A stretch of DNA of 64,000 bases. Origin: the human T2T-CHM13v2.0 reference genome, Homo sapiens. Shown one piece after another: positions 313-57,200 of the stretch. The position numbers and the translations under genes are program-made. The stretch lies in assembly GCF_009914755.1 (NCBI RefSeq), contig NC_060931.1, one strand, 5' to 3'. The notes under the pieces are model-generated. The model worked only from the letters and a program-made list of their open reading frames with translations, made no database searches and was not told the DNA's origin. Positions within the stretch are counted from its first letter, which is position 1. Each line of letters begins with the position of its first letter.

Positions 313-1056
313 GGCGCTGGCCTGGGTTGGGTGTGTCCGTGTGTCCAGTGCTGGCCTGCGTTGGGTGTGTCCGTGTGTCCGGCGCTGGCCTGCGTTGGGT
401 GTGTCCGTGTGTCCGGCGCTGGCCTGCGTTGGGTGTGTCCGTGTGTCCGGCGCTGGCCTGGGTTGGGTGTGTCCGTGTGTCCGGCGCTGGCCTGGGTTGG
501 GTGTGTCCGTGTGTCCGGCGCTGGCCTGGGTTGGGTGTGTCCGTGTGTCCGGCGCTGGCCTGGGTTGGGTGTGTCCGTGTGTCCGGCGCTGGCCTGGGTT
601 GGGTGTGTCCGTGTGTCCGGCGCTGGCCTGGGTTGGGTGTGTCCGTGTGTCCGGCGCTGGCCTGGGTTGGGTGTCCTTGTGTCCGGCGCTGGCCTGCGTT
701 GGGTGTGTCCGTGTGTCCGGCGCTGGCCTGGGTTGGGTGTGTCCGTGTGTCCGGCGCTGGCCTGGGTTGGGTGTGTCCGTGTGTCCGGCGCTGGCCTGCG
801 TTGGGTGTGTCCGTGTGTCCGGCGCTGGCCTGGGTTGGGTGTGTCTGTGTGTCCGGCGCTGGCCTGCGTTGGGTGTGTCCGTGTGTCCGGTGCTGGCCTG
901 CGTTGGGTGTGTCCGTGTGTCCGGTGCTGGCCTGCGTTGGGTGTGTCCGGCGTTGGCCTGCATTGGGTGTGTCCGTGTGTCCGGCGCTGGCCTGTGTTGG
1001 GTGTGTCCGTGTGTCCGGTGCTGGCCTGCGTTGGGTGTGTCTGTGTGTCTGGCGCT
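313..1056. repeat. 34-bp minisatellite (VNTR), ~22 copies
   Basis: Unit GGCGCTGGCCTG(G/C)GTTGGGTGTGTCCGTGTGTCC repeated head-to-tail, with GGG/GCG variant units and two shortened units. It explains the overlapping long ORFs at 12-1436. Confidence 0.97.
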
Positions 1057-10277: not shown

Positions 10278-10788
10278 TGAGCACTCTCTCTGTGTGAGCA
10301 CGCCTCTGTGTGTGAGCACTCCTCTGTGAGCACTCTATGTGAGCACTCTGTATGTGAGCACTCTGTGGGTGAGCACTCTCTGTGTGTGAGCACTCCTGTG
10401 AGCACTCTGTATGTGAGCACTGTATGTGAGCATTCTCTGTGGGTGAGCACTCTGAGCACTCTGTGGGTTAGCATTCTGTGGGTGAGCACTCTGGGTGAGC
10501 ACTCTGGGTGAGCACTCTGGGTGAGCACTCTGTGGGTGAGCACTCTGGGTGAGCACTCTGGGTGAGCACTCTGTCTGGGTGAGCACTCTGTCTGGGTGAG
10601 CACTCTGGGTGAGCACTCTGAGCACTCTGGGTGAGCACTCTGGGTGAGCACTCTGTCTGGGTGAGCACTCTGGGTGAGCACTCTGAGCACTCTGGGTGAG
10701 CACTCTGTCTGGGTGAGCACTCTGGGTGAGCACTCTGTCTGGGTGAGCACTCTGGGTGAGCACTCTGTCTGTGAACACTCTGTGAGCA
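10278..10788. repeat. Short-unit minisatellite (GTGAGCACTCT(G/GG/GT/GTCTGG)), 9-17-bp variants
   Basis: More than 30 iterations of the core TGAGCACTCT with variable spacers. Confidence 0.95.
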
Positions 10789-14139: not shown

Positions 14140-14415
14140 GGCTCCCGGCCCGGTGTGCAGGTGAGGGGTCTCCCGGCCCCGCGTGCAGGCGAGGGGTCTC
14201 CCGGCCCCGCGTGCAGGCGAGGGGTTTTCCCGGCCCCGCGTGCGGGTGAGGGGTTTTCCCGGCCCCGCGTGCGGGTGAGGGGTTTTCCCGGCCCCGCGTG
14301 CGGGTGAGGGGTTTTCCCGGCCCCGCGTGCGGGTGAGGGGTTTTCCCGGCCCCGCGTGCGGGTGAGGGGTTTTCCCGGCCCCGTGTGCGGGTGAGGGGGG
14401 GTCCCAGCCCCGTGT
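14140..14415. repeat. 29-bp CpG-rich minisatellite, ~9 copies
   Basis: Unit GGTGAGGGGTTTTCCCGGCCCCGCGTGCG, with 28-bp GGGGTCTCCC variants at the 5' edge. Confidence 0.96.
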
Positions 14416-17620: not shown

Positions 17621-18334
17621 TGATGCCTCCTGACCTTCTCAACCCTCTCCACTGTTAGAGCCCCTGTTATTCCCGCACCGCGTTAAGTTGGGGGGCTGAC
17701 GTGTCCTCCGCCACTGGGCCGATGTTCTGCCCTTTGTCAAAGTCCCCTTTTCCCGTGTGGCCCAGCACCTCCTTTAGGATGAGGCTGCACTGGTGGGGCT
17801 GGGAAGGCTGATCAGGAGGTTTGCAGCGCCAGGTCCAGTCCTCACCCCTGGGGTCAGTTTGGCCTCGGACCAGGCACGAGACACCTGGCCTTTTAGGAGG
17901 GGGGAGGTTTGAGGTCAGCAGTGGCCCCAGAGCCTTGGGAGAGGGGCCAGGGGAGGGCCATTCTAGATGCAGCCCAGGGAGCCTGCAGCCCATGGCTACC
18001 CACGAAAAGAAGAGAGGTCTAAGAGGGAGCCCGAGTTCCCACGCAGGGGAGATGAAGACCAGGGCGGGCAGGGGCCTGGCCCAGGTTCCGGAGAAGCAAG
18101 GGGTGCTTCTCGGATATCACGGCGGATGAGAGTGACCCAGAGTCGTTAACCAGAGTGTCTATGCGGCCGTGACGAGGCGTGGACTCGGCTGTCCCCATCA
18201 CGTGTTCATGAGCTGAGTCTTTTATCCAACAGATACTTTCACGGAGCATCCAAAAAAGTTCCCATCATGTGCTGAGAGGCAAAGAAGGCTCAGCCGTGTT
18301 CCTGCCTTGAGGACTTGAGCCAGAAACGGCATAT

Positions 18335-18560
18335 GGGAGAGCCAGGGACAGCACACGGGAGAGCCGGGGAGGGCACACGGGAGAGCCGGGGAGGGCACAC
18401 GGGAGAGCCGGGGAGGGCACACGGGAGAGCCGGGGAGGGCACACGGGAGAGCCGGGAAGGGCACACGGGAGAGCCGGGGAGGGCACACGGGAGAGCCGGG
18501 GAGGGAACACGGGAGAGCCGGGGAGAGCACACGGGAGAGCCGGGGCGGCACACGGGAGAG
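18335..18560. repeat. 22-bp minisatellite, ~10 copies
   Basis: Unit CACACGGGAGAGCCGGGGAGGG. Confidence 0.96.
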
Positions 18561-19171
18561 CAGATGAAGGTAATACATGCAGTGGCCCAGCTCGGGGGTG
18601 TGGATTCTGTGTGAAGATTTCCCTAGAGGAGGGGCTGCAGCCCCCGGAATCTGAAGCCAGAGTTTGTATGAACAGCAGCAATTCCCAAGCCCACGTCTCC
18701 CAGGCCACGGTTTGAGAAATGGAATCTTCCCCCTATGTTAGGATAGTGCTTCATTCCAAAAAAAAAACCCTTCCTAGGGCCAATTCCCAAGTCTAAGTTA
18801 TGAGAACAGAAAGTAAAGTCGAGTCCCTTCAACAGTTCTTGGAAAATGCACCGGGAATGCTCAGTGTTTCTGGAGCCAAAGCCTTAATTCAAACAAGCAA
18901 GCAAACAAACAAGCCTGACGTTGAACATAAAACACATCAATGAAAACAAAGAAAATAATGCAGAGAGGCACATGACTCAGCTCGCAATCAGCGGCCCCGC
19001 GAGGGAGGCAGCCTGTGCACTGGGCACGCCGAAGCCCCTCCGGCGGCGGCTCTTTGTTCCCCGCGTCACCTCACTGCACGCCCCGTCACCAGCGTCGTGC
19101 TCCAGCAGCGGCGCTCCTCCAGCCAAAGAGGGAGGCACTGACGAAACCCGTGCAGTCAAATTCTCGCGGCC

Positions 19172-31451: not shown

Positions 31452-31932
31452 GGCACCTCGGCTGGCACGTACTCCACCCTCCAGGGCTCGGGGCATGACG
31501 GGCACCTCGGCTGGCACGTACTCCACCCTCCAGGGCTCGGGGCATGACGGGCACCTCGGCTGGCACGTACTCCACCCTCCGGGGCTCGGGGCATGACGGG
31601 CACCTCGGCTGGCACGTACTCCACCCTCCGGGGCTCGGGGCATGACGGGCACCTCGGCTGGCACGTACTCCACCCTCCGGGGCTCGGGGCATGACGGGCA
31701 CCTCGGCTGGCACGTACTCCCTCCGGGGCTCGGGGCATGACGGGCACCTCGGCTGGCACGTACTCCACCCTCCGGGGCTCGGGGCATGACGGGCACCTCG
31801 GCTGGCACGTACTCCACCCTCCGGGGCTCGGGGCATGACGGGCACCTCGGCTGGCACGCACTCCACCCTCCGGGGCTCGGGGCATGACGGGCACCTCGGC
31901 TGGCACGTACTCCACCCTCCGGGGCTCGGGGC
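31452..31932. repeat. 49-bp CpG-rich minisatellite, ~10 copies
   Basis: Unit GGCACCTCGGCTGGCACGTACTCCACCCTCCGGGGCTCGGGGCATGACG. Unit 6 (31697-31742) lacks 3 bp and unit 9 has GCACGCA. Confidence 0.97.
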
Positions 31933-33197
31933 CTGAGGAGCAGAAGGTGGCCCTGGGCAGATGCTCTGCGTGCGGGAGGCTGCGCTTTCAGTCATTATTT
32001 GGATTTCGTTTTCCACATGAAAATATTTAGAGATCCAGCTCTTGGAAGCCAAGGAGAAACTGGCTTTTAAGGTAAAGGAAGGCAAGTTTGCCGAGGTGAT
32101 GGGAAGACACCTTGCAACTGCGAAACCTCCAAATTTACCGGTAGAACCTGGCACACAGCTTTTGCCGTCGTTTGGAGAATTACTGCGTGCACTGCCGTTC
32201 GCTCAGAGCCATTGTGCACGTTTGTTTCTCTGATCACTAACAGCCTGCACGTTTCCAGCGTTTCCAGTTTCCAGCGTTGTATGGGGATTTCCACGTGTTT
32301 CAGTCGCTTATTAGCTTTTGTGGCTTCAGGGTGAGCCGTGGCGTCTGAGACACCCAGCCACATCGTTCCGCTGTGGGCGGGGCATTGAAGACAGGTCTGA
32401 AAACGTTCCAGCTCTTGCTGGAAGGGACGTCATTTCTGAACACGTGAGGGGTCTGAGTTTCTTTACGACAGCAGCTTCTATTGAGCGAAATGGTCAGAAA
32501 ACCATTGCTCTAGTTAATATTTTAGATAGTTGCAAGTTACTCCATTTACCATATATACTTTACAACTTTCCAAAGAGTTAAAATACAGAAGGGGCCTTAC
32601 TTCCAAATATGAAGTGTGTGGGTGCACCGGTTGTTTCAAATTCAGAACGTGTTTTCCACAATGACAACGTCATAAATGCCGTTGAGATTCCCAGGCCGGC
32701 TCCTAGAAACCCTTAATAGTAGAAAACCATAGGGGGAAACACCAGTAATTAGACAGAACAGAATACAATTGCTTTTTTAAAAGTTATTTTGATCCCTGGT
32801 GGTCAAATGAAAAACATGATCATGGGAGGCCATGGAAGGTGAGCCGTCGATATTCCGAAGGGAAGCCGGGATCCGTCCAAGGGCGTTCGAGATAAAAGGT
32901 GCTGTTTCATTAATATGTCTAGCTGCACTTCGAGATTTATGGCTTAACTTTGTTTTGTAAAAATTGAATATTAGCCTTATTCTTATGATTTTCAGAAGTA
33001 ATCAGAGAAGTTTTTAATTTACAAGGAGGGGAAACAGGGAAACAGAGGAAGGGAGAGAGACAGGCATCTGCGGAGACTTCCCTGGAGAGCAGAGGCCAGA
33101 GGCAGAAGAGGGAGGGGGTGGAGTGGTTGCGGAGGACTTGCCCAGGAAACCCCTGTGAGAAGGAAGAGTTTTCTCAGCTGAGCATTGAGCCAGCTGG

Positions 33198-39516: not shown

Positions 39517-40075
39517 AGGAGGAGGGAGAGAAAGAGAGAGAGGAGGAGGGAGAGAAAGAGAGAGAGGAGACAGGGAGAGCGAAGGGGAGAGGGAGAGAAG
39601 GGGAAAGGGAGAGAGGGGGAGAGAAGGAGAGAGAGGGGAAGAGGGAGAGAGGGGGAGAGAGGGAGAGAGACCGGGAGAAGGAGAGAGAGGGAGAGAGGGA
39701 GAGAGAGGGGAGAGGGAGAGAGAGGGGAGAGGGAGAGGGGGACAGGGAGAGAGGGGGGAGAGAAGGAGAGAGGAGGGAGAGGGAGAGAGGGGGGAGAGAA
39801 GGAGAAGGGGGGAGAGGGAGAGAGATGGGGAGAAGGAGAGAGGGGGGAGAGGGAGAGAGAGGGGAGAGGGAGAGAGAGGGGAGAGGGAGAGAGAGGGGAG
39901 AGGGAGAGAGAGGGGAGAGGGAGAGAGAGGGGAGAGGGAGAGAGAGGGGAGAGGGAGAGAGAGGGGACAGGGAGAGAGAGGGGACAGGGAGAGAGAGGGG
40001 AGAGGGAGAGAGAGGGGAGAGGGAGAGAGAGGGGAGAGGGAAACAGAGGGGAAGAGAGAGAGTTGGGGGGGGAGA
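39517..40075. repeat. ~560-bp homopurine (GA/GGA/GGGA) tract
   Basis: Near-pure purine. The distal half is built from a 17-bp unit GGGAGAGAGAGGGGAGA. Confidence 0.96.
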
Positions 40076-40510
40076 GTGATGGAGACGGAGAGTGGGGAGA
40101 GCAATGGAGATGGGGAGGGACTGCTCATGGTGATAGCATGATGTTTTCTTCCAGTCGAGGTTGGTGGAAAAGCAAGATAGTTTTGGGTTCCTCATGTTTC
40201 TTTTCACTATTTTTTACATTTGAATCAAAGATGTTTTCTTGGATATAAGTGGACGTTAAGCTGGTCTTTTTCCTATTTGTGAAACTGTGAAACAGCAAAG
40301 TTAGTATTCACCTTTTAACTTGCCCAGGTTGAAAAGTGCTCCCAAAACGGGACTGGGAAAGACAATGGTCTAAGTACAAGCAAACGATTTACAATTCTTA
40401 AAAGTTGTTTTGTTTGAATACACTTCACATCAGATGATTCTACAGAGATTGTAATTGTGATACGATCGAGTCTCTGTTTTTCTGCCTTTCAGTATTAAAT
40501 TCATATTTTT

Positions 40511-43663
<3,153 letters not shown>

Positions 43664-44002
43664 TAAATTCACATTTTTATAAATGTTGACTACAAAAGGA
43701 TTTGATATCGTCACATTCACCGCTGGAAAGTCAATGATTGGATGTCCGCAATGTCACAACAAAGGCCTGTCTCATCTGTGTCATCAGGCTGAGGAGGGGA
43801 TGTTGACCTGCAGATGACATCACGGCGGCCACACACGTGCCTGGGGCTGCTGGAGATGCTGGTTGGGGAGGAGTTTGGCCTTCTGAGGAGGAAGTCCCAG
43901 AGCAGACTTTGGCTCAACTCTAAGGTACATTTGAGCTTGTAGAGGGATCCCCGCCGCTCTCCTGCCTGTGAGCTCGCCCTTGGGCTTGGCAGCCGTGGTG
44001 CC

Positions 44003-49124: not shown

Positions 49125-49417
49125 CACATTGACACAAATGTGTACACAGAAGCACACATGCACACACACATACATGCATGTGCACAGATGAACACACAGA
49201 CACACACGCACACACATGCACATGCATGCAAAGACATGCACACATGCATGCACACACACACATGCACATGCACAGATGAACACACAGACACACACACGCA
49301 CATGCATGCACACAGACACACATGCATATACATGCACAGAGATGCACACATATACACACAGACATGCACACACACATGCTACAGCATGTGCACACAGACA
49401 CACACACCCTGCACACC
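49125..49417. repeat. (CA)/(CATG)-rich low-complexity tract
   Basis: About 290 bp of degenerate CACACATGCA repeats. Confidence 0.93.
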
Positions 49418-55401: not shown

Positions 55402-55743
55402 AGAGAAGAAAGAGAGAGGCTCAGGGCTGCTAGGAGAAGACAGAGACAGAGAAGGAGGCAGAGAGAGGCAGAGAGAGAAAAAAAGACAGAGACAGAGGGA
55501 GGCAGAGAGAGAGAGAGAAGAAAGAGAGGGAGGCAGAGAGAGAGAGAGAGAGATGATAGACGGAGACAGAGAAGGAGGCAGAGGGAGACAGAAGAGACAG
55601 AGACAGAGGGAGGCAGAGAGAGACAGAGAGAGAAGAGACAGACAGAGAGGGAGGCAGAGAGAGACAGAGAGAGAAGAAGAGACAGAGAGGAGGCAGAGAG
55701 AGACAGAGAGAAGAGACAGATGGACACAGAGAGGGAGGCAGAG
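55402..55743. repeat. (GA)/(GACA)-rich low-complexity tract
   Basis: Purine-rich AGAGACAGAG/GGAGGCAGAG iterations. Confidence 0.93.
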
Positions 55744-55774
55744 ACTGTGTGTGTAACACACTCTCCCTTGAAAG

Positions 55775-57200
55775 AGAAGCAAAAGGAATAAAAAAATATT
55801 TGCAAACTCTTCATCCAACAAGGGACTAATACCCAGAATCTACAAGGAACTCACCCAGCTCAACAGCAACAAAAATAATCTGATTTAAAAATGGGCAAAT
55901 TTCAGCAGGTCATGGACTAAAAAAATAAAAAATAAGAAAAATGGGCAAACGATCAGAGTAGATGTTTCTCAGAAGAAGACCTACCAGTGGCCAGAAAGTA
56001 TATGAGAAAAGACCCAACATCACTCAGGAAAATGCTAATTTAAAACCATAATGAGATACCACCCCACATCTGCTAGAATGGTTTTTATCAGAAAGGCAGA
56101 AGATCACAGAGGCGGGGAGGTGGAGAAAAGAGAGCCGTGTGCACTCTCGGAGGGAAAAGAGGGCCGTGTGCACTGTCGGAGAGAAAAGAGGGCCGTGTGC
56201 ACTGTCGCAGGGAAAAGAGGGCCGTGTGCACTCTCGGAGGGAAAAGAAGGCCGTGTGCACTGTGGCAGGGAAAAGAGGGCCGTGTGCACCGTCTGAGGGA
56301 AAAGAGGGCCGTGTGCACTGTCGCAGGGAAAAGAGGGCCGTGTGTACTGTCGGAGGGAAAAGAGGGCCGTGTGCAGTGTCGCAGGGAAAAGAGGGCCGTG
56401 TGCAGTGTCGCAGGGAAAAGAGGGCCGTGTGCAGTGTCGGAAGGAAAAGTGGGCAGTGCGCACTGTGGGAGGGAAAAGAGGGCCATGTGCACTGTCGGAG
56501 GGAATGTGAGTGAGGATGCCTGCTATGGAGAGCCCCTGGAGTTTCCTGAAAACACTAAAAATAGAGCCACCTTGGGATCCAGCAGTCCCACTGCTGGGCA
56601 TACGCCCCAAAGAAAGGAAATCCGTATATCGAAGATGTATCTGCACATCTCTATTCATTGCAGCACTACTTACAATGGCCGAGATTTGGAATCAACCTCA
56701 GTGCCCATCAACAGACGAACGGATAAGAAAAATGTGGTGCGTAGGCACAGTGGATACTGTTCAGCCAGAGAAGAAAGGAATCCTGTCATTTCAGCCGCAT
56801 GGATGAGCCTGGAGGAATTGGGGAAATCAGCCAGGTGCAGGAAGACAAACACCCCAGGATCTCACACATCTGTGGGAGCTAAAAAAGCCGAACTCAAGGC
56901 GGTGGTGATGGACTGCTGGTTGCCAGAGTCTGGGGAGGGGGTAAGAGTTAGAGCCAGACGGGAGAATAAGCTCTAGTGTTCCTGGCACTCCACGCAACTG
57001 TGGTTGACAACAATTTATTGTATGTTTTCAGAGAGCTGGAAGAGAGGCTTTGGAATGTTCCCAGCACAAAGAACTGACAAAGGTTTGAGGTGACAGGCAC
57101 GTGAACCGCCCTGATCTGACTATCCCACATCATACACGGGCGTCGAAACACCACCCTGTATTCCAGAAACAGGTGCAATTATTGTGTGCCAATTAAAAAA
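55775..57200 (+). mobile_element. L1MA-type 3' portion (end of ORF2, 3' UTR, poly-A) containing an internal VNTR
   Basis: ATATTTGCAAACT..CAAGGGACTAATACCCAGAAT..ATGAGATACCACC..CTAAAAATAGAGC..GATCCAGCAGTCCCACTGCTGGG..CAATTAAAAAAA. Confidence 0.88.
56125..56501. repeat. 29-bp minisatellite, 13 copies, amplified from L1 sequence
   Basis: Unit GAAAAGAGGGCCGTGTGCACTGTCG(G/C)AGG with an exact 29-bp period from 56125 to 56473. The flanks resume L1 sequence (GTGGA|GAAAAG... ...GG|GAATGTGAG). Confidence 0.97.

What the first reader, a model, noticed from the sequence alone, without database searches (positions are those of the whole stretch)
56125..56501. L1-born minisatellite forms a natural array of consensus metal-response elements (MTF-1 sites)
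Seen: on the minus strand the unit reads TGCACACGGCCC. Eight of 13 units (2,3,4,6,7,9,10,11) have this 12-mer exactly, and 11 of 13 have the TGCRCNC core, all at a fixed 29-bp spacing. Units 1 and 4 add a plus-strand TGCACTC. Established: the MRE bound by MTF-1 is TGCRCNC with extended consensus TGCRCNCGGCCC, and multimerised MREs act as zinc/cadmium-inducible enhancers. Inference: this may be a naturally evolved, copy-number-variable metal-inducible enhancer, created by point mutation plus tandem amplification of inert L1 sequence.
Basis: partly seen in the sequence, partly recalled or inferred. Interest (0 to 1): 0.85.

Follow-up and report, generated by a model that had tools for sequence, protein, structure and literature searches.

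The report
L1-derived minisatellite carrying perfect MTF-1 motifs
A 29-base repeat that grew out of an old L1 element near the end of chromosome 7q carries eight perfect copies of the strongest known binding motif for the metal sensor MTF-1, but it most likely arose as a by-product of ordinary repeat evolution and has no shown regulatory role.

Summary
Window 56125-56504 holds a 29-bp x 13.1 tandem array with no indels. Eight of 13 units carry the exact minus-strand TGCACACGGCCC and 11 of 13 carry the TGCRCNC core. That 12-mer is the core of the standard high-affinity MRE-s probe for MTF-1.

The array holds 8 of the 165 copies of the 12-mer in the assembly. It is the densest cluster of extended-consensus MREs I found; metallothionein promoters have 2.

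The L1 origin is confirmed. The flanks are LINE-1 ORF2 3' sequence. Each of 29 related L1 copies has a single unit with no MRE, 5 or more mismatches from the 12-mer.

The enhancer reading is not supported:
- MRE columns are no better conserved than the other columns.
- The L1 copy shows strong GC-biased substitution.
- The array lies 1.85 Mb from the 7q end, among 16 minisatellites in 64 kb.
- About 1-5 minisatellites should carry this motif by chance, and 4 were found.
- A human MTF-1 CUT&RUN study saw no motif enrichment.
- A synthetic 4x MRE-S unit was constitutive, not zinc-inducible.

No binding, chromatin, methylation or population data were available. Verdict: a real and curious motif array, most likely neutral.

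The parts
56125..56504 (.). 29-bp minisatellite, 13.1 head-to-tail copies. GC 0.603, 23 CpG, CpG observed/expected 0.81.
   Evidence: TRF; script. No second copy of the array in the assembly.
56161..56172 (-). exact extended MRE TGCACACGGCCC (unit 2)
56190..56201 (-). exact extended MRE (unit 3)
56219..56230 (-). exact extended MRE (unit 4). A plus-strand core TGCACTC overlaps at 56227-56233.
56277..56288 (-). exact extended MRE (unit 6)
56306..56317 (-). exact extended MRE (unit 7)
56364..56375 (-). exact extended MRE (unit 9)
56393..56404 (-). exact extended MRE (unit 10)
56422..56433 (-). exact extended MRE (unit 11)
56137..56143 (-). core-only MRE TGCACAC (unit 1, 3' flank degraded). A plus-strand TGCACTC lies at 56140-56146.
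56253..56259 (-). core-only MRE (unit 5, 3' flank degraded)
56456..56463 (.). palindromic core TGCGCAC read on both strands (unit 12)
55966..56124 (+). left flank: old LINE-1 ORF2 3' part, colinear with the array
   Evidence: Aligns to the in-window L1 at 42857 onward. That element carries RVT_1, E 2.2e-31.
56502..56791 (+). right flank: old LINE-1 ORF2 3' part. GC 0.475, against a median of 0.369 in 29 related copies.
   Evidence: Translation of 56510-56803 matches LINE-1 ORF2p residues 1151-1231, E 4.5e-22.

Best explanation
This is a selectively neutral, GC-rich subtelomeric minisatellite that grew in place inside an old LINE-1 fragment.

The founder stretch encodes the cysteine-rich C-terminal part of ORF2p. 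In related L1 copies it is present once; in locus L026, for example, it reads GAAAAGGGAACCCTCGTACACTGTTGGTGG. In this copy the stretch took about eight substitutions, mostly A/T to G/C, and lost one base. The result is the 29-bp unit, for example unit 2: GAAAAGAGGGCCGTGTGCACTGTCGGAGA. Its reverse strand happens to spell the high-affinity MTF-1 site TGCACACGGCCC.

Slippage or unequal exchange then copied the unit 13 times, and the motif was carried along passively.

Shown here: the anatomy, the L1 origin, the single-copy ancestral state, the GC bias and the genome-wide rarity.

Inferred: naked array DNA would bind MTF-1 in vitro, which I think very likely because the 12-mer equals that of the MRE-s probe. 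Also inferred: in cells the array has no selected regulatory role, whether or not it is occasionally occupied.
For: 1. In-place L1 origin. The flanks and unit are colinear with the in-window L1. The right flank translates to ORF2p residues 1151-1231, E 4.5e-22. The homologous ORF of the younger copy matches ORF2p 1134-1275, E 1.4e-89.

2. Single-copy ancestral state. All 29 related copies aligned show the stretch once. In 5 of 29 the local alignments of unit 1 and unit 13 fall on the same 19-30 bases. None of the 29 has a TGCRCNC core there, and all are 5-7 mismatches from the 12-mer.

3. GC-biased change. In the right flank, window=G/C with copy=A/T is seen 1053 times against 307 for the reverse, and the excess holds in 29 of 29 copies. 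GC is 0.475 against a median of 0.369 and a maximum of 0.408. The left flank gives 292 against 193, with an excess in 22 of 29 copies.

4. No constraint on the motif. Variable columns are 6 of 12 in the MRE and 9 of 17 elsewhere (Fisher p=1). Variant cells are 6 of 156 against 17 of 221 (p=0.19).

5. Context. The array is 1.853 Mb from the 7q end. VNTRs with GC above 60% and units above 15 bp are 21-fold enriched within 5 Mb of chromosome ends, and neighbouring PTPRN2 is a top VNTR gene (PMC7608644 passages). The window itself holds 16 tandem arrays, 11 of them with GC above 0.60 and period above 15, and several are as CpG-rich as this one. About 23% of minisatellites are TE-derived, and 601 are L1-associated (PMC3389668 abstract and section 3.1).

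6. Chance. A rough calculation expects about 1-5 of roughly 31,600 minisatellite loci to hold the extended MRE. Four tandem-repeat loci with adjacent extended MREs were found: this one, C2, C10 and C13. The backwards-pattern control gave 5 and 8 matches, against 13 and 10 for the real pattern, of which 7 and 5 come from this single array.

7. Position. The array is 24.2 kb from the nearest annotated TSS and 13.2 kb from the PTPRN2 3' end (hub table).
Against: - The match is the exact optimum, not a loose one. It is the same 12-mer as in the MRE-s probe, and the gGCCc flank matters for affinity (PMC9820605).
- With 8 extended sites it exceeds every other locus found. The next have 3, and a verified metallothionein promoter has 2.
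- At least five changes were needed to reach the motif, which is a long way to drift.
- The array formally reaches CpG-island values: GC 0.60 and observed/expected 0.81 over 380 bp. It shows no excess of deamination-type changes at CpGs: 1 of 52 CpG cells against 7 transitions in 325 other cells. This would fit an unmethylated germline state, but also youth, homogenisation or GC-biased conversion.
- The conservation test has little power with 13 related units.
- The hub table lists 6 RefSeq enhancers and mentions '2 more' whose places I could not see.
Confidence: 0.75

Rival explanations
1. The array is a working MTF-1-dependent enhancer. When unmethylated and accessible, its 8-11 same-orientation sites at a 29-bp pitch recruit several MTF-1 molecules and activate a nearby promoter (a local lncRNA, PTPRN2 or DNAJB6). 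Output would scale with copy number.
For: The 12-mer is identical to that of the high-affinity MRE-s probe. It is the densest extended-MRE cluster found in the assembly. Synthetic MRE multimers drive reporters (PMC12701871 passages). CpG observed/expected is 0.81 with no excess CpG decay. A 29-bp pitch leaves room for one six-finger protein per unit; this point is inference, and the footprint size is recalled.
Against: No binding, chromatin or expression data exist for this locus. MTF-1 CUT&RUN in MDA-MB-231 cells gave 77,070 peaks with no enrichment of the TGCACACG motif, and occupancy followed already-open FOS/JUN and FOX sites (PMC10047149 Results). The closest synthetic analogue, MRE-S*4, had strong basal activity and no further Zn/MTF1 induction, so 'inducible' is doubtful. 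Full CpG methylation cut an Mt1 promoter reporter by 89% (PMC7503544 passages), and each site here holds a CpG. There is no extra conservation of the MRE columns. The array is 24 kb from the nearest annotated TSS, whereas natural MREs sit within about 200 bp of one.
Confidence: 0.12
2. The array matters through something other than MTF-1, for example as a recombination or instability hotspot, a G-quadruplex or R-loop former, or a platform for another zinc-finger protein that recognises the L1-derived unit.
For: It lies in a subtelomeric, VNTR-dense, GC-biased region. The plus strand has two G3 runs per unit, giving 12 hits to a relaxed quadruplex pattern with loops up to 20. The minus strand has 4 one-mismatch hits to the recalled PRDM9 13-mer hotspot motif.
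Against: There is no canonical quadruplex with loops of 1-7 on either strand and no exact PRDM9 motif. No other transcription-factor matrix library was available, so no other factor was tested. None of these features sets the array apart from the 15 other arrays in the window.
Confidence: 0.08

Closest known systems
MRE clusters of metallothionein promoters
   Same: Same core TGCRCNC and same extended flank. The pattern search that found this array also found a chr16 locus with 2 extended sites and 5 core sites upstream of an MDPNCSCS... start codon, 4 of them within 221 bp. It found two more loci 25-57 kb away in the same region.
   Different: Promoter MREs are few, differ from one another, face both ways, sit within about 200 bp of a TSS and lie beside other factor sites. 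Here there are 8 identical sites in one orientation at a fixed 29-bp pitch, inside an L1 fragment, 24 kb from any annotated TSS.
Synthetic multimerised MRE reporters, such as MRE-S*4 in PMC12701871
   Same: Head-to-tail copies of the same high-affinity site. The MRE-S*4 oligonucleotide repeats ctctgcacacggcc four times.
   Different: The synthetic unit has a 15-bp pitch, 4 copies, sits next to a minimal promoter and is unmethylated plasmid DNA. In NG108-15 cells it was constitutively strong and not zinc-inducible. The natural array has a 29-bp pitch, 8-11 sites and lies in chromatin.
TE-derived minisatellites (Ahmed and Liang 2012, PMC3389668)
   Same: A tandem array whose unit is an internal stretch of a transposable element, expanded by local duplication. 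The paper counts 7,276 such loci, 601 of them L1-associated.
   Different: The paper reports no transcription-factor motif content. Here the unit diverged by at least 5 changes from the L1 sequence before or during amplification.
GC-rich subtelomeric VNTRs (Linthorst et al. 2020, PMC7608644)
   Same: GC 0.603, a 29-bp unit and 1.85 Mb from the chromosome end. This fits the class reported as 21-fold enriched within 5 Mb of chromosome ends. PTPRN2, 13 kb away, is one of the two most VNTR-rich genes.
   Different: Polymorphism of this particular array was not tested.
Other MRE-bearing minisatellites found here
   Same: C2:819.5-820.0 kb has 33 bp x 15.1 copies with 12 cores and 2 extended sites. 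C13:112.075 Mb has 44 bp x 5.8 with 3 exact 12-mers. C10:130.93 Mb has 36 bp x 3.1 with 3 extended sites, and its unit looks Alu-like by my reading.
   Different: They hold fewer extended-consensus sites (2-3 against 8). Their origin was not studied.

Membership tests
Metal response element (MTF-1 site) | Core TGCRCNC | tested here: met
   11 of 13 units on the minus strand, plus 3 plus-strand cores.
Metal response element (MTF-1 site) | GC-rich 3' extension (NTGCRCNCgGCCc as printed in PMC9820605) | tested here: met
   8 of 13 units are exact. The 12-mer equals that of the MRE-s probe.
Metal response element (MTF-1 site) | Binds MTF-1 in vitro or in cells | not testable with these tools
   No EMSA or ChIP data could be reached. 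The one CUT&RUN paper read gives no peak list in its text, and its supplement was listed but not opened.
Metal response element (MTF-1 site) | Confers zinc- or cadmium-dependent transcription | not testable with these tools
   The closest synthetic analogue was constitutive, not inducible.
Metal response element (MTF-1 site) | Promoter-proximal position, as in metallothionein genes | tested here: not met
   24,163 bp from the nearest annotated TSS (hub table). In the verified MT promoter the extended sites are 124 and 193 bp from the ATG.
TE-derived minisatellite | Head-to-tail copies of a 10-100 bp unit | tested here: met
   Period 29, 13.1 copies, 0% indels.
TE-derived minisatellite | Unit homologous to an internal TE stretch that is single-copy in other copies of the TE | tested here: met
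   29 of 29 L1 copies have one copy. The flanks match LINE-1 ORF2p.
TE-derived minisatellite | Copy number varies between individuals (VNTR) | not testable with these tools
   Only one haplotype is held.
GC-rich subtelomeric VNTR class | Within 5 Mb of a chromosome end, GC above 60%, unit above 15 bp | tested here: met
   1,852,927 bp from the end of C7. GC 0.603 and unit 29 bp. Class criteria are from PMC7608644.
CpG island | Over 200 bp, GC above 0.5, CpG observed/expected above 0.6 (criteria recalled) | tested here: met
   380 bp, GC 0.603, observed/expected 0.81. Other arrays in the window are equally CpG-rich.
CpG island | Unmethylated in germline or tissues | not testable with these tools
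   No methylation data. Indirectly, 1 deamination-type change in 52 CpG cells.
Enhancer | Open chromatin, H3K27ac or eRNA, or reporter activity | not testable with these tools
   None of the six RefSeq enhancers listed by the hub overlaps the array. Two more are not listed.

The most novel reading that the evidence does not exclude
The array is a human, or primate, copy-number-variable MTF-1 docking platform, built by chance from L1 coding sequence. In zinc-rich neuroendocrine cells it would act as a zinc-sensing or constitutive enhancer for PTPRN2 or the neighbouring lncRNAs, so repeat length would tune a metal-linked expression trait. That PTPRN2 is neuroendocrine is recalled and comes from no call here.
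Probability: 0.08. Interest if true: 0.7.

Novelty: new member of a known kind. Interest (0 to 1): 0.3.

Why it matters
If the array were bound and active, it would be a clean natural example of a repeat creating a dosage-variable stress-responsive enhancer from inert transposon coding sequence. It would also be easy to test, because the array is unique in the genome and its motif is the biochemical optimum.

As things stand, it mainly shows how a perfect, multi-copy transcription-factor site can arise with no selection, through GC-biased change followed by tandem amplification. It is a caution against reading function from motif density in VNTRs.

It could also be used as a specificity check for MTF-1 ChIP or CUT&RUN data. 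A locus with 8 optimal sites outside any promoter tells motif-driven binding apart from accessibility-driven signal.

Tried and rejected
- Pfam on the translated flanks (56510-56803 and 55936-56040) and on the 3' ORF of the younger L1 (43019-43444): no family at E <= 0.01. The PDB sequence search named them instead.
- Supplement of the MTF-1 CUT&RUN paper: one zip file was listed and not opened. The Results text describes Tables S1 and S2 as gene and regulator lists, not peaks. A peak list, if it exists elsewhere, could bear on occupancy.
- Canonical G-quadruplex pattern: 0 hits on either strand. Exact PRDM9 13-mer (recalled motif): 0 hits, and 4 hits at one mismatch. Both were rejected as distinguishing features.
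- Purifying selection on the MRE columns: no signal, but the test has low power.
- CpG-decay test: no excess, so uninformative between an unmethylated state, a young array and GC-biased conversion.
- Methylation sensitivity of MTF-1: the primary paper (Radtke et al. 1996) was not readable. Only a second-hand sentence was seen, saying MREa is sensitive and MREd is not (PMC3607999), so the effect at this site's CpG is open.
- Novelty searches. 'minisatellite' + 'metal response element': 0 papers. 'MTF1' + 'VNTR': 7 papers, none relevant by title or abstract. 'MTF1' + 'tandem repeat' + 'metal response element': 8 papers held, 7 listed, none on a natural genomic array by title or abstract. The 12-mer itself: 6 papers; the two I read print it in an EMSA probe, and the other four were seen in the listing only.

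Full report
**1. The observation.**
Tandem Repeats Finder reports a single array at window 56125-56504: period 29, 13.1 copies, 89% matches, no indels.
- The minus-strand 12-mer TGCACACGGCCC is intact in units 2, 3, 4, 6, 7, 9, 10 and 11, which is 8 of 13.
- The core TGCRCNC is present on the minus strand in 11 of 13 units; units 8 and 13 lack it.
- Units 1 and 4 add a plus-strand TGCACTC.

Fourteen of the window's 105 core matches lie in these 380 bases.

**2. How good the motif is.**
Two papers print the standard high-affinity MRE-s EMSA probe for MTF-1, and both probes contain this same 12-mer (PMC9820605 Table 1; PMC2478662 methods). PMC9820605 gives the consensus as TGCRCNC, extended to NTGCRCNCgGCCc. 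It attributes the weak MTF1 binding of an MT1A element to its lack of the gGCCc part. So the array units carry the biochemical optimum rather than a loose match.

**3. How rare it is.**
The assembly that holds the window (3.117 Gb, 24 contigs) can be pattern-searched.
- The exact 12-mer occurs 165 times, and 8 of these are here.
- Two extended-consensus sites within 1-60 bp occur 13 times. Seven of these are overlapping pairs in this array. The rest are at C2:819.9 kb, C10:130.93 Mb (2), C13:112.075 Mb (2) and C16:62.477 Mb.
- At 61-150 bp spacing there are 10 matches. Five are here, and the others are at C8, C13, C16:3.50 Mb and two more near C16:62.42-62.45 Mb.
- The C16:62.477 Mb hit is a genuine control. 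Its two extended sites lie 124 and 193 bp upstream of a reading frame that starts MDPNCSCS, and three further cores are nearby. That is a metallothionein promoter.

So the search recovers real MREs, and no locus found has more than 3 extended sites, against 8 here. Four units of the array match nothing else in the genome.

**4. Where it came from.**
- Both flanks and the unit are colinear with a younger L1 copy in the same window at 42857-43348. An upstream frame of that copy carries a reverse-transcriptase domain (RVT_1, E 2.2e-31). Its 3' frame matches human LINE-1 ORF2p residues 1134-1275 (E 1.4e-89).
- The array's own right flank translates to ORF2p residues 1151-1231 (E 4.5e-22).
- The unit therefore corresponds to the DNA just upstream, which encodes the cysteine-rich CGEIGTLVHCWWDC stretch.
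- The right flank has 4,134 first-look candidates in the genome, of which 40 were scored. The best are 75-81% identical, as expected for an old L1 family. I did not name the subfamily, because no repeat library was on hand.
- In an alignment of 29 such copies, every one has the stretch once. None has a TGCRCNC core there. The best match to the 12-mer has 5 mismatches in 20 copies, 6 in 8 copies and 7 in 1 copy.

So the 'L1-born, by point mutation plus amplification' part of the finding is right. It took about eight substitutions and a one-base loss.

**5. Why it most likely arose without selection.**
- **No constraint on the motif.** Within the array, the 12 MRE columns vary as often as the other 17: 6 of 12 variable columns against 9 of 17 (Fisher p=1), and 6 of 156 variant cells against 17 of 221 (p=0.19). 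The power of this test is low.
- **GC-biased change.** This L1 copy has been pushed towards G/C. In the right flank, positions where this copy has G/C and another copy has A/T outnumber the reverse 1053 to 307, with an excess in 29 of 29 comparisons. GC is 0.475, against a median of 0.369 and a maximum of 0.408. The left flank shows a weaker bias, 292 to 193, with an excess in 22 of 29 copies. Most motif-creating changes are of this A/T to G/C kind.
- **Subtelomeric, VNTR-dense setting.** The array is 1,852,927 bp from the end of chromosome 7q. VNTRs with GC above 60% and units above 15 bp are 21-fold enriched within 5 Mb of chromosome ends, and PTPRN2, 13 kb away, is one of the two most VNTR-rich genes (PMC7608644). 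The window alone holds 16 tandem arrays covering 7% of its bases. Eleven of them have GC above 0.60 and period above 15. Four hold at least one MRE core, and several are as CpG-rich as this one.
- **Chance expectation.** TE-derived minisatellites are common: 7,276 loci, or 23% of all, with 601 L1-associated (PMC3389668). With roughly 31,600 minisatellite loci, a simple composition model expects about 1-5 to carry the extended MRE in their unit. I found four: this one, C2 (33 bp x 15.1, 12 cores, 2 extended), C13 (44 bp x 5.8, 3 exact) and C10 (36 bp x 3.1, 3 extended). The tool's backwards-pattern control gave 5 and 8 matches.
- **Look-elsewhere effect.** There are hundreds of known factor motifs, so some minisatellite matching some optimum is expected. 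This last point is inference.

**6. Would it work as a metal-inducible enhancer?**
Nothing here tests that directly, and the indirect evidence is lukewarm.
- The only human MTF-1 CUT&RUN study I could read found 77,070 peaks, no enrichment of the TGCACACG motif, and occupancy that followed already-open FOS/JUN and FOX sites (PMC10047149, Results read in full).
- The closest synthetic analogue is four head-to-tail MRE-S sites before a minimal promoter. It gave strong basal activity and no further induction by zinc plus MTF1 in NG108-15 cells, while weaker natural MREs were induced 3.6- to 21.4-fold (PMC12701871 passages). If the array is active at all, constitutive activity seems more likely than induction.
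- Full CpG methylation lowered an Mt1 promoter reporter by 89% (PMC7503544 passages).
- Each site here holds a CpG. The direct effect on MTF-1 binding is known to me only second-hand: MREa is sensitive and MREd is not (PMC3607999 citing Radtke 1996).
- The array is 24.2 kb from the nearest annotated TSS.

**7. Points in favour of function, stated fully.**
- The match is the exact optimum.
- The site count is the highest found.
- Five or more changes were needed to reach it.
- The array reaches CpG-island values: GC 0.603 and observed/expected 0.81.
- Deamination-type changes at its CpGs are not in excess: 1 of 52 cells against 7 transitions in 325 other cells.

The last two points would fit a germline-unmethylated state. 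They equally fit a young or homogenised array in a region of GC-biased conversion, and other arrays in the window share them.

**8. Verdict.**
- The sequence facts and the origin story are confirmed.
- The functional claim is untested and, on balance, unlikely. I put it at about 0.12 for a real MTF-1-dependent enhancer, and lower for a metal-inducible one.
- The array is best filed as a new member of two known kinds: TE-derived minisatellites and GC-rich subtelomeric VNTRs.
- Its motif content is unusual and, as far as my searches go, unreported.
- It is cheap to test, because the array is unique and public MTF-1, methylation and pangenome data should settle occupancy, chromatin state and copy-number variation.

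Noticed in passing
window 313-1056, 10304-10784, 14143-14412, 18328-18561, 31452-31936, 39522-40092 and others: The 64-kb window holds 16 distinct tandem arrays (TRF score >= 100) covering 7% of its bases. Eleven have GC above 0.60 and period above 15. Some are very CpG-rich, for example 66 CpG in 744 bp at 313-1056.
   Followed up: partly
window 14143-14412: A second 29-bp-period array (9.4 copies, GC 0.77, 34 CpG) whose first units carry three minus-strand MRE cores at 28-bp spacing: 14153, 14181 and 14209. It has no extended sites.
   Followed up: partly
window 49138-49407: A degenerate CA-rich repeat with 7 plus-strand TGCACAC cores. Core-level MRE clusters arise readily in low-complexity repeats.
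   Followed up: partly
G000:C2:819.5-820.0 kb (L009 1068-1560): A 33-bp x 15.1 minisatellite near the 2p end with 12 MRE cores. Most read TGCACTCAGCCC, one base off the extended consensus, and 2 are exact.
   Followed up: partly
G000:C13:112.075 Mb (L019 1359-1636): A 44-bp x 5.8 (or 88-bp x 3.2) minisatellite with three exact copies of the same 12-mer, each preceded by TT.
   Followed up: partly
G000:C16:62.42-62.48 Mb: Three loci with paired extended MREs lie within 57 kb. One was verified as lying upstream of a metallothionein-like start codon. The other two were not checked.
   Followed up: partly
window 56024-56976: No stop codon falls inside the array in nearly any frame on either strand. 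For example, a 299-aa open frame spans 56077-56976 (+) and a 195-aa frame spans 56104-56691 (-). This is expected for a GC-rich 29-bp unit, and I took it as having no coding meaning.
   Followed up: no
window 55434-55745: A GA-rich simple repeat of about 300 bp lies roughly 200 bp upstream of where the L1 alignment begins on the left.
   Followed up: no
window 56154-56385: There are hints of a higher-order structure. A 4-unit (116-bp) block matches the next block at 93% identity, and a 3-unit query matches 116 bp downstream at 94%. Units 3 and 7 are identical, as are units 9 and 10.
   Followed up: no
window 40500-43700: A younger L1 3' portion (reverse-transcriptase domain through the ORF2 C-terminus) lies on the plus strand with a broken frame. 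Its last 142 codons match human ORF2p residues 1134-1275 with few differences.
   Followed up: partly
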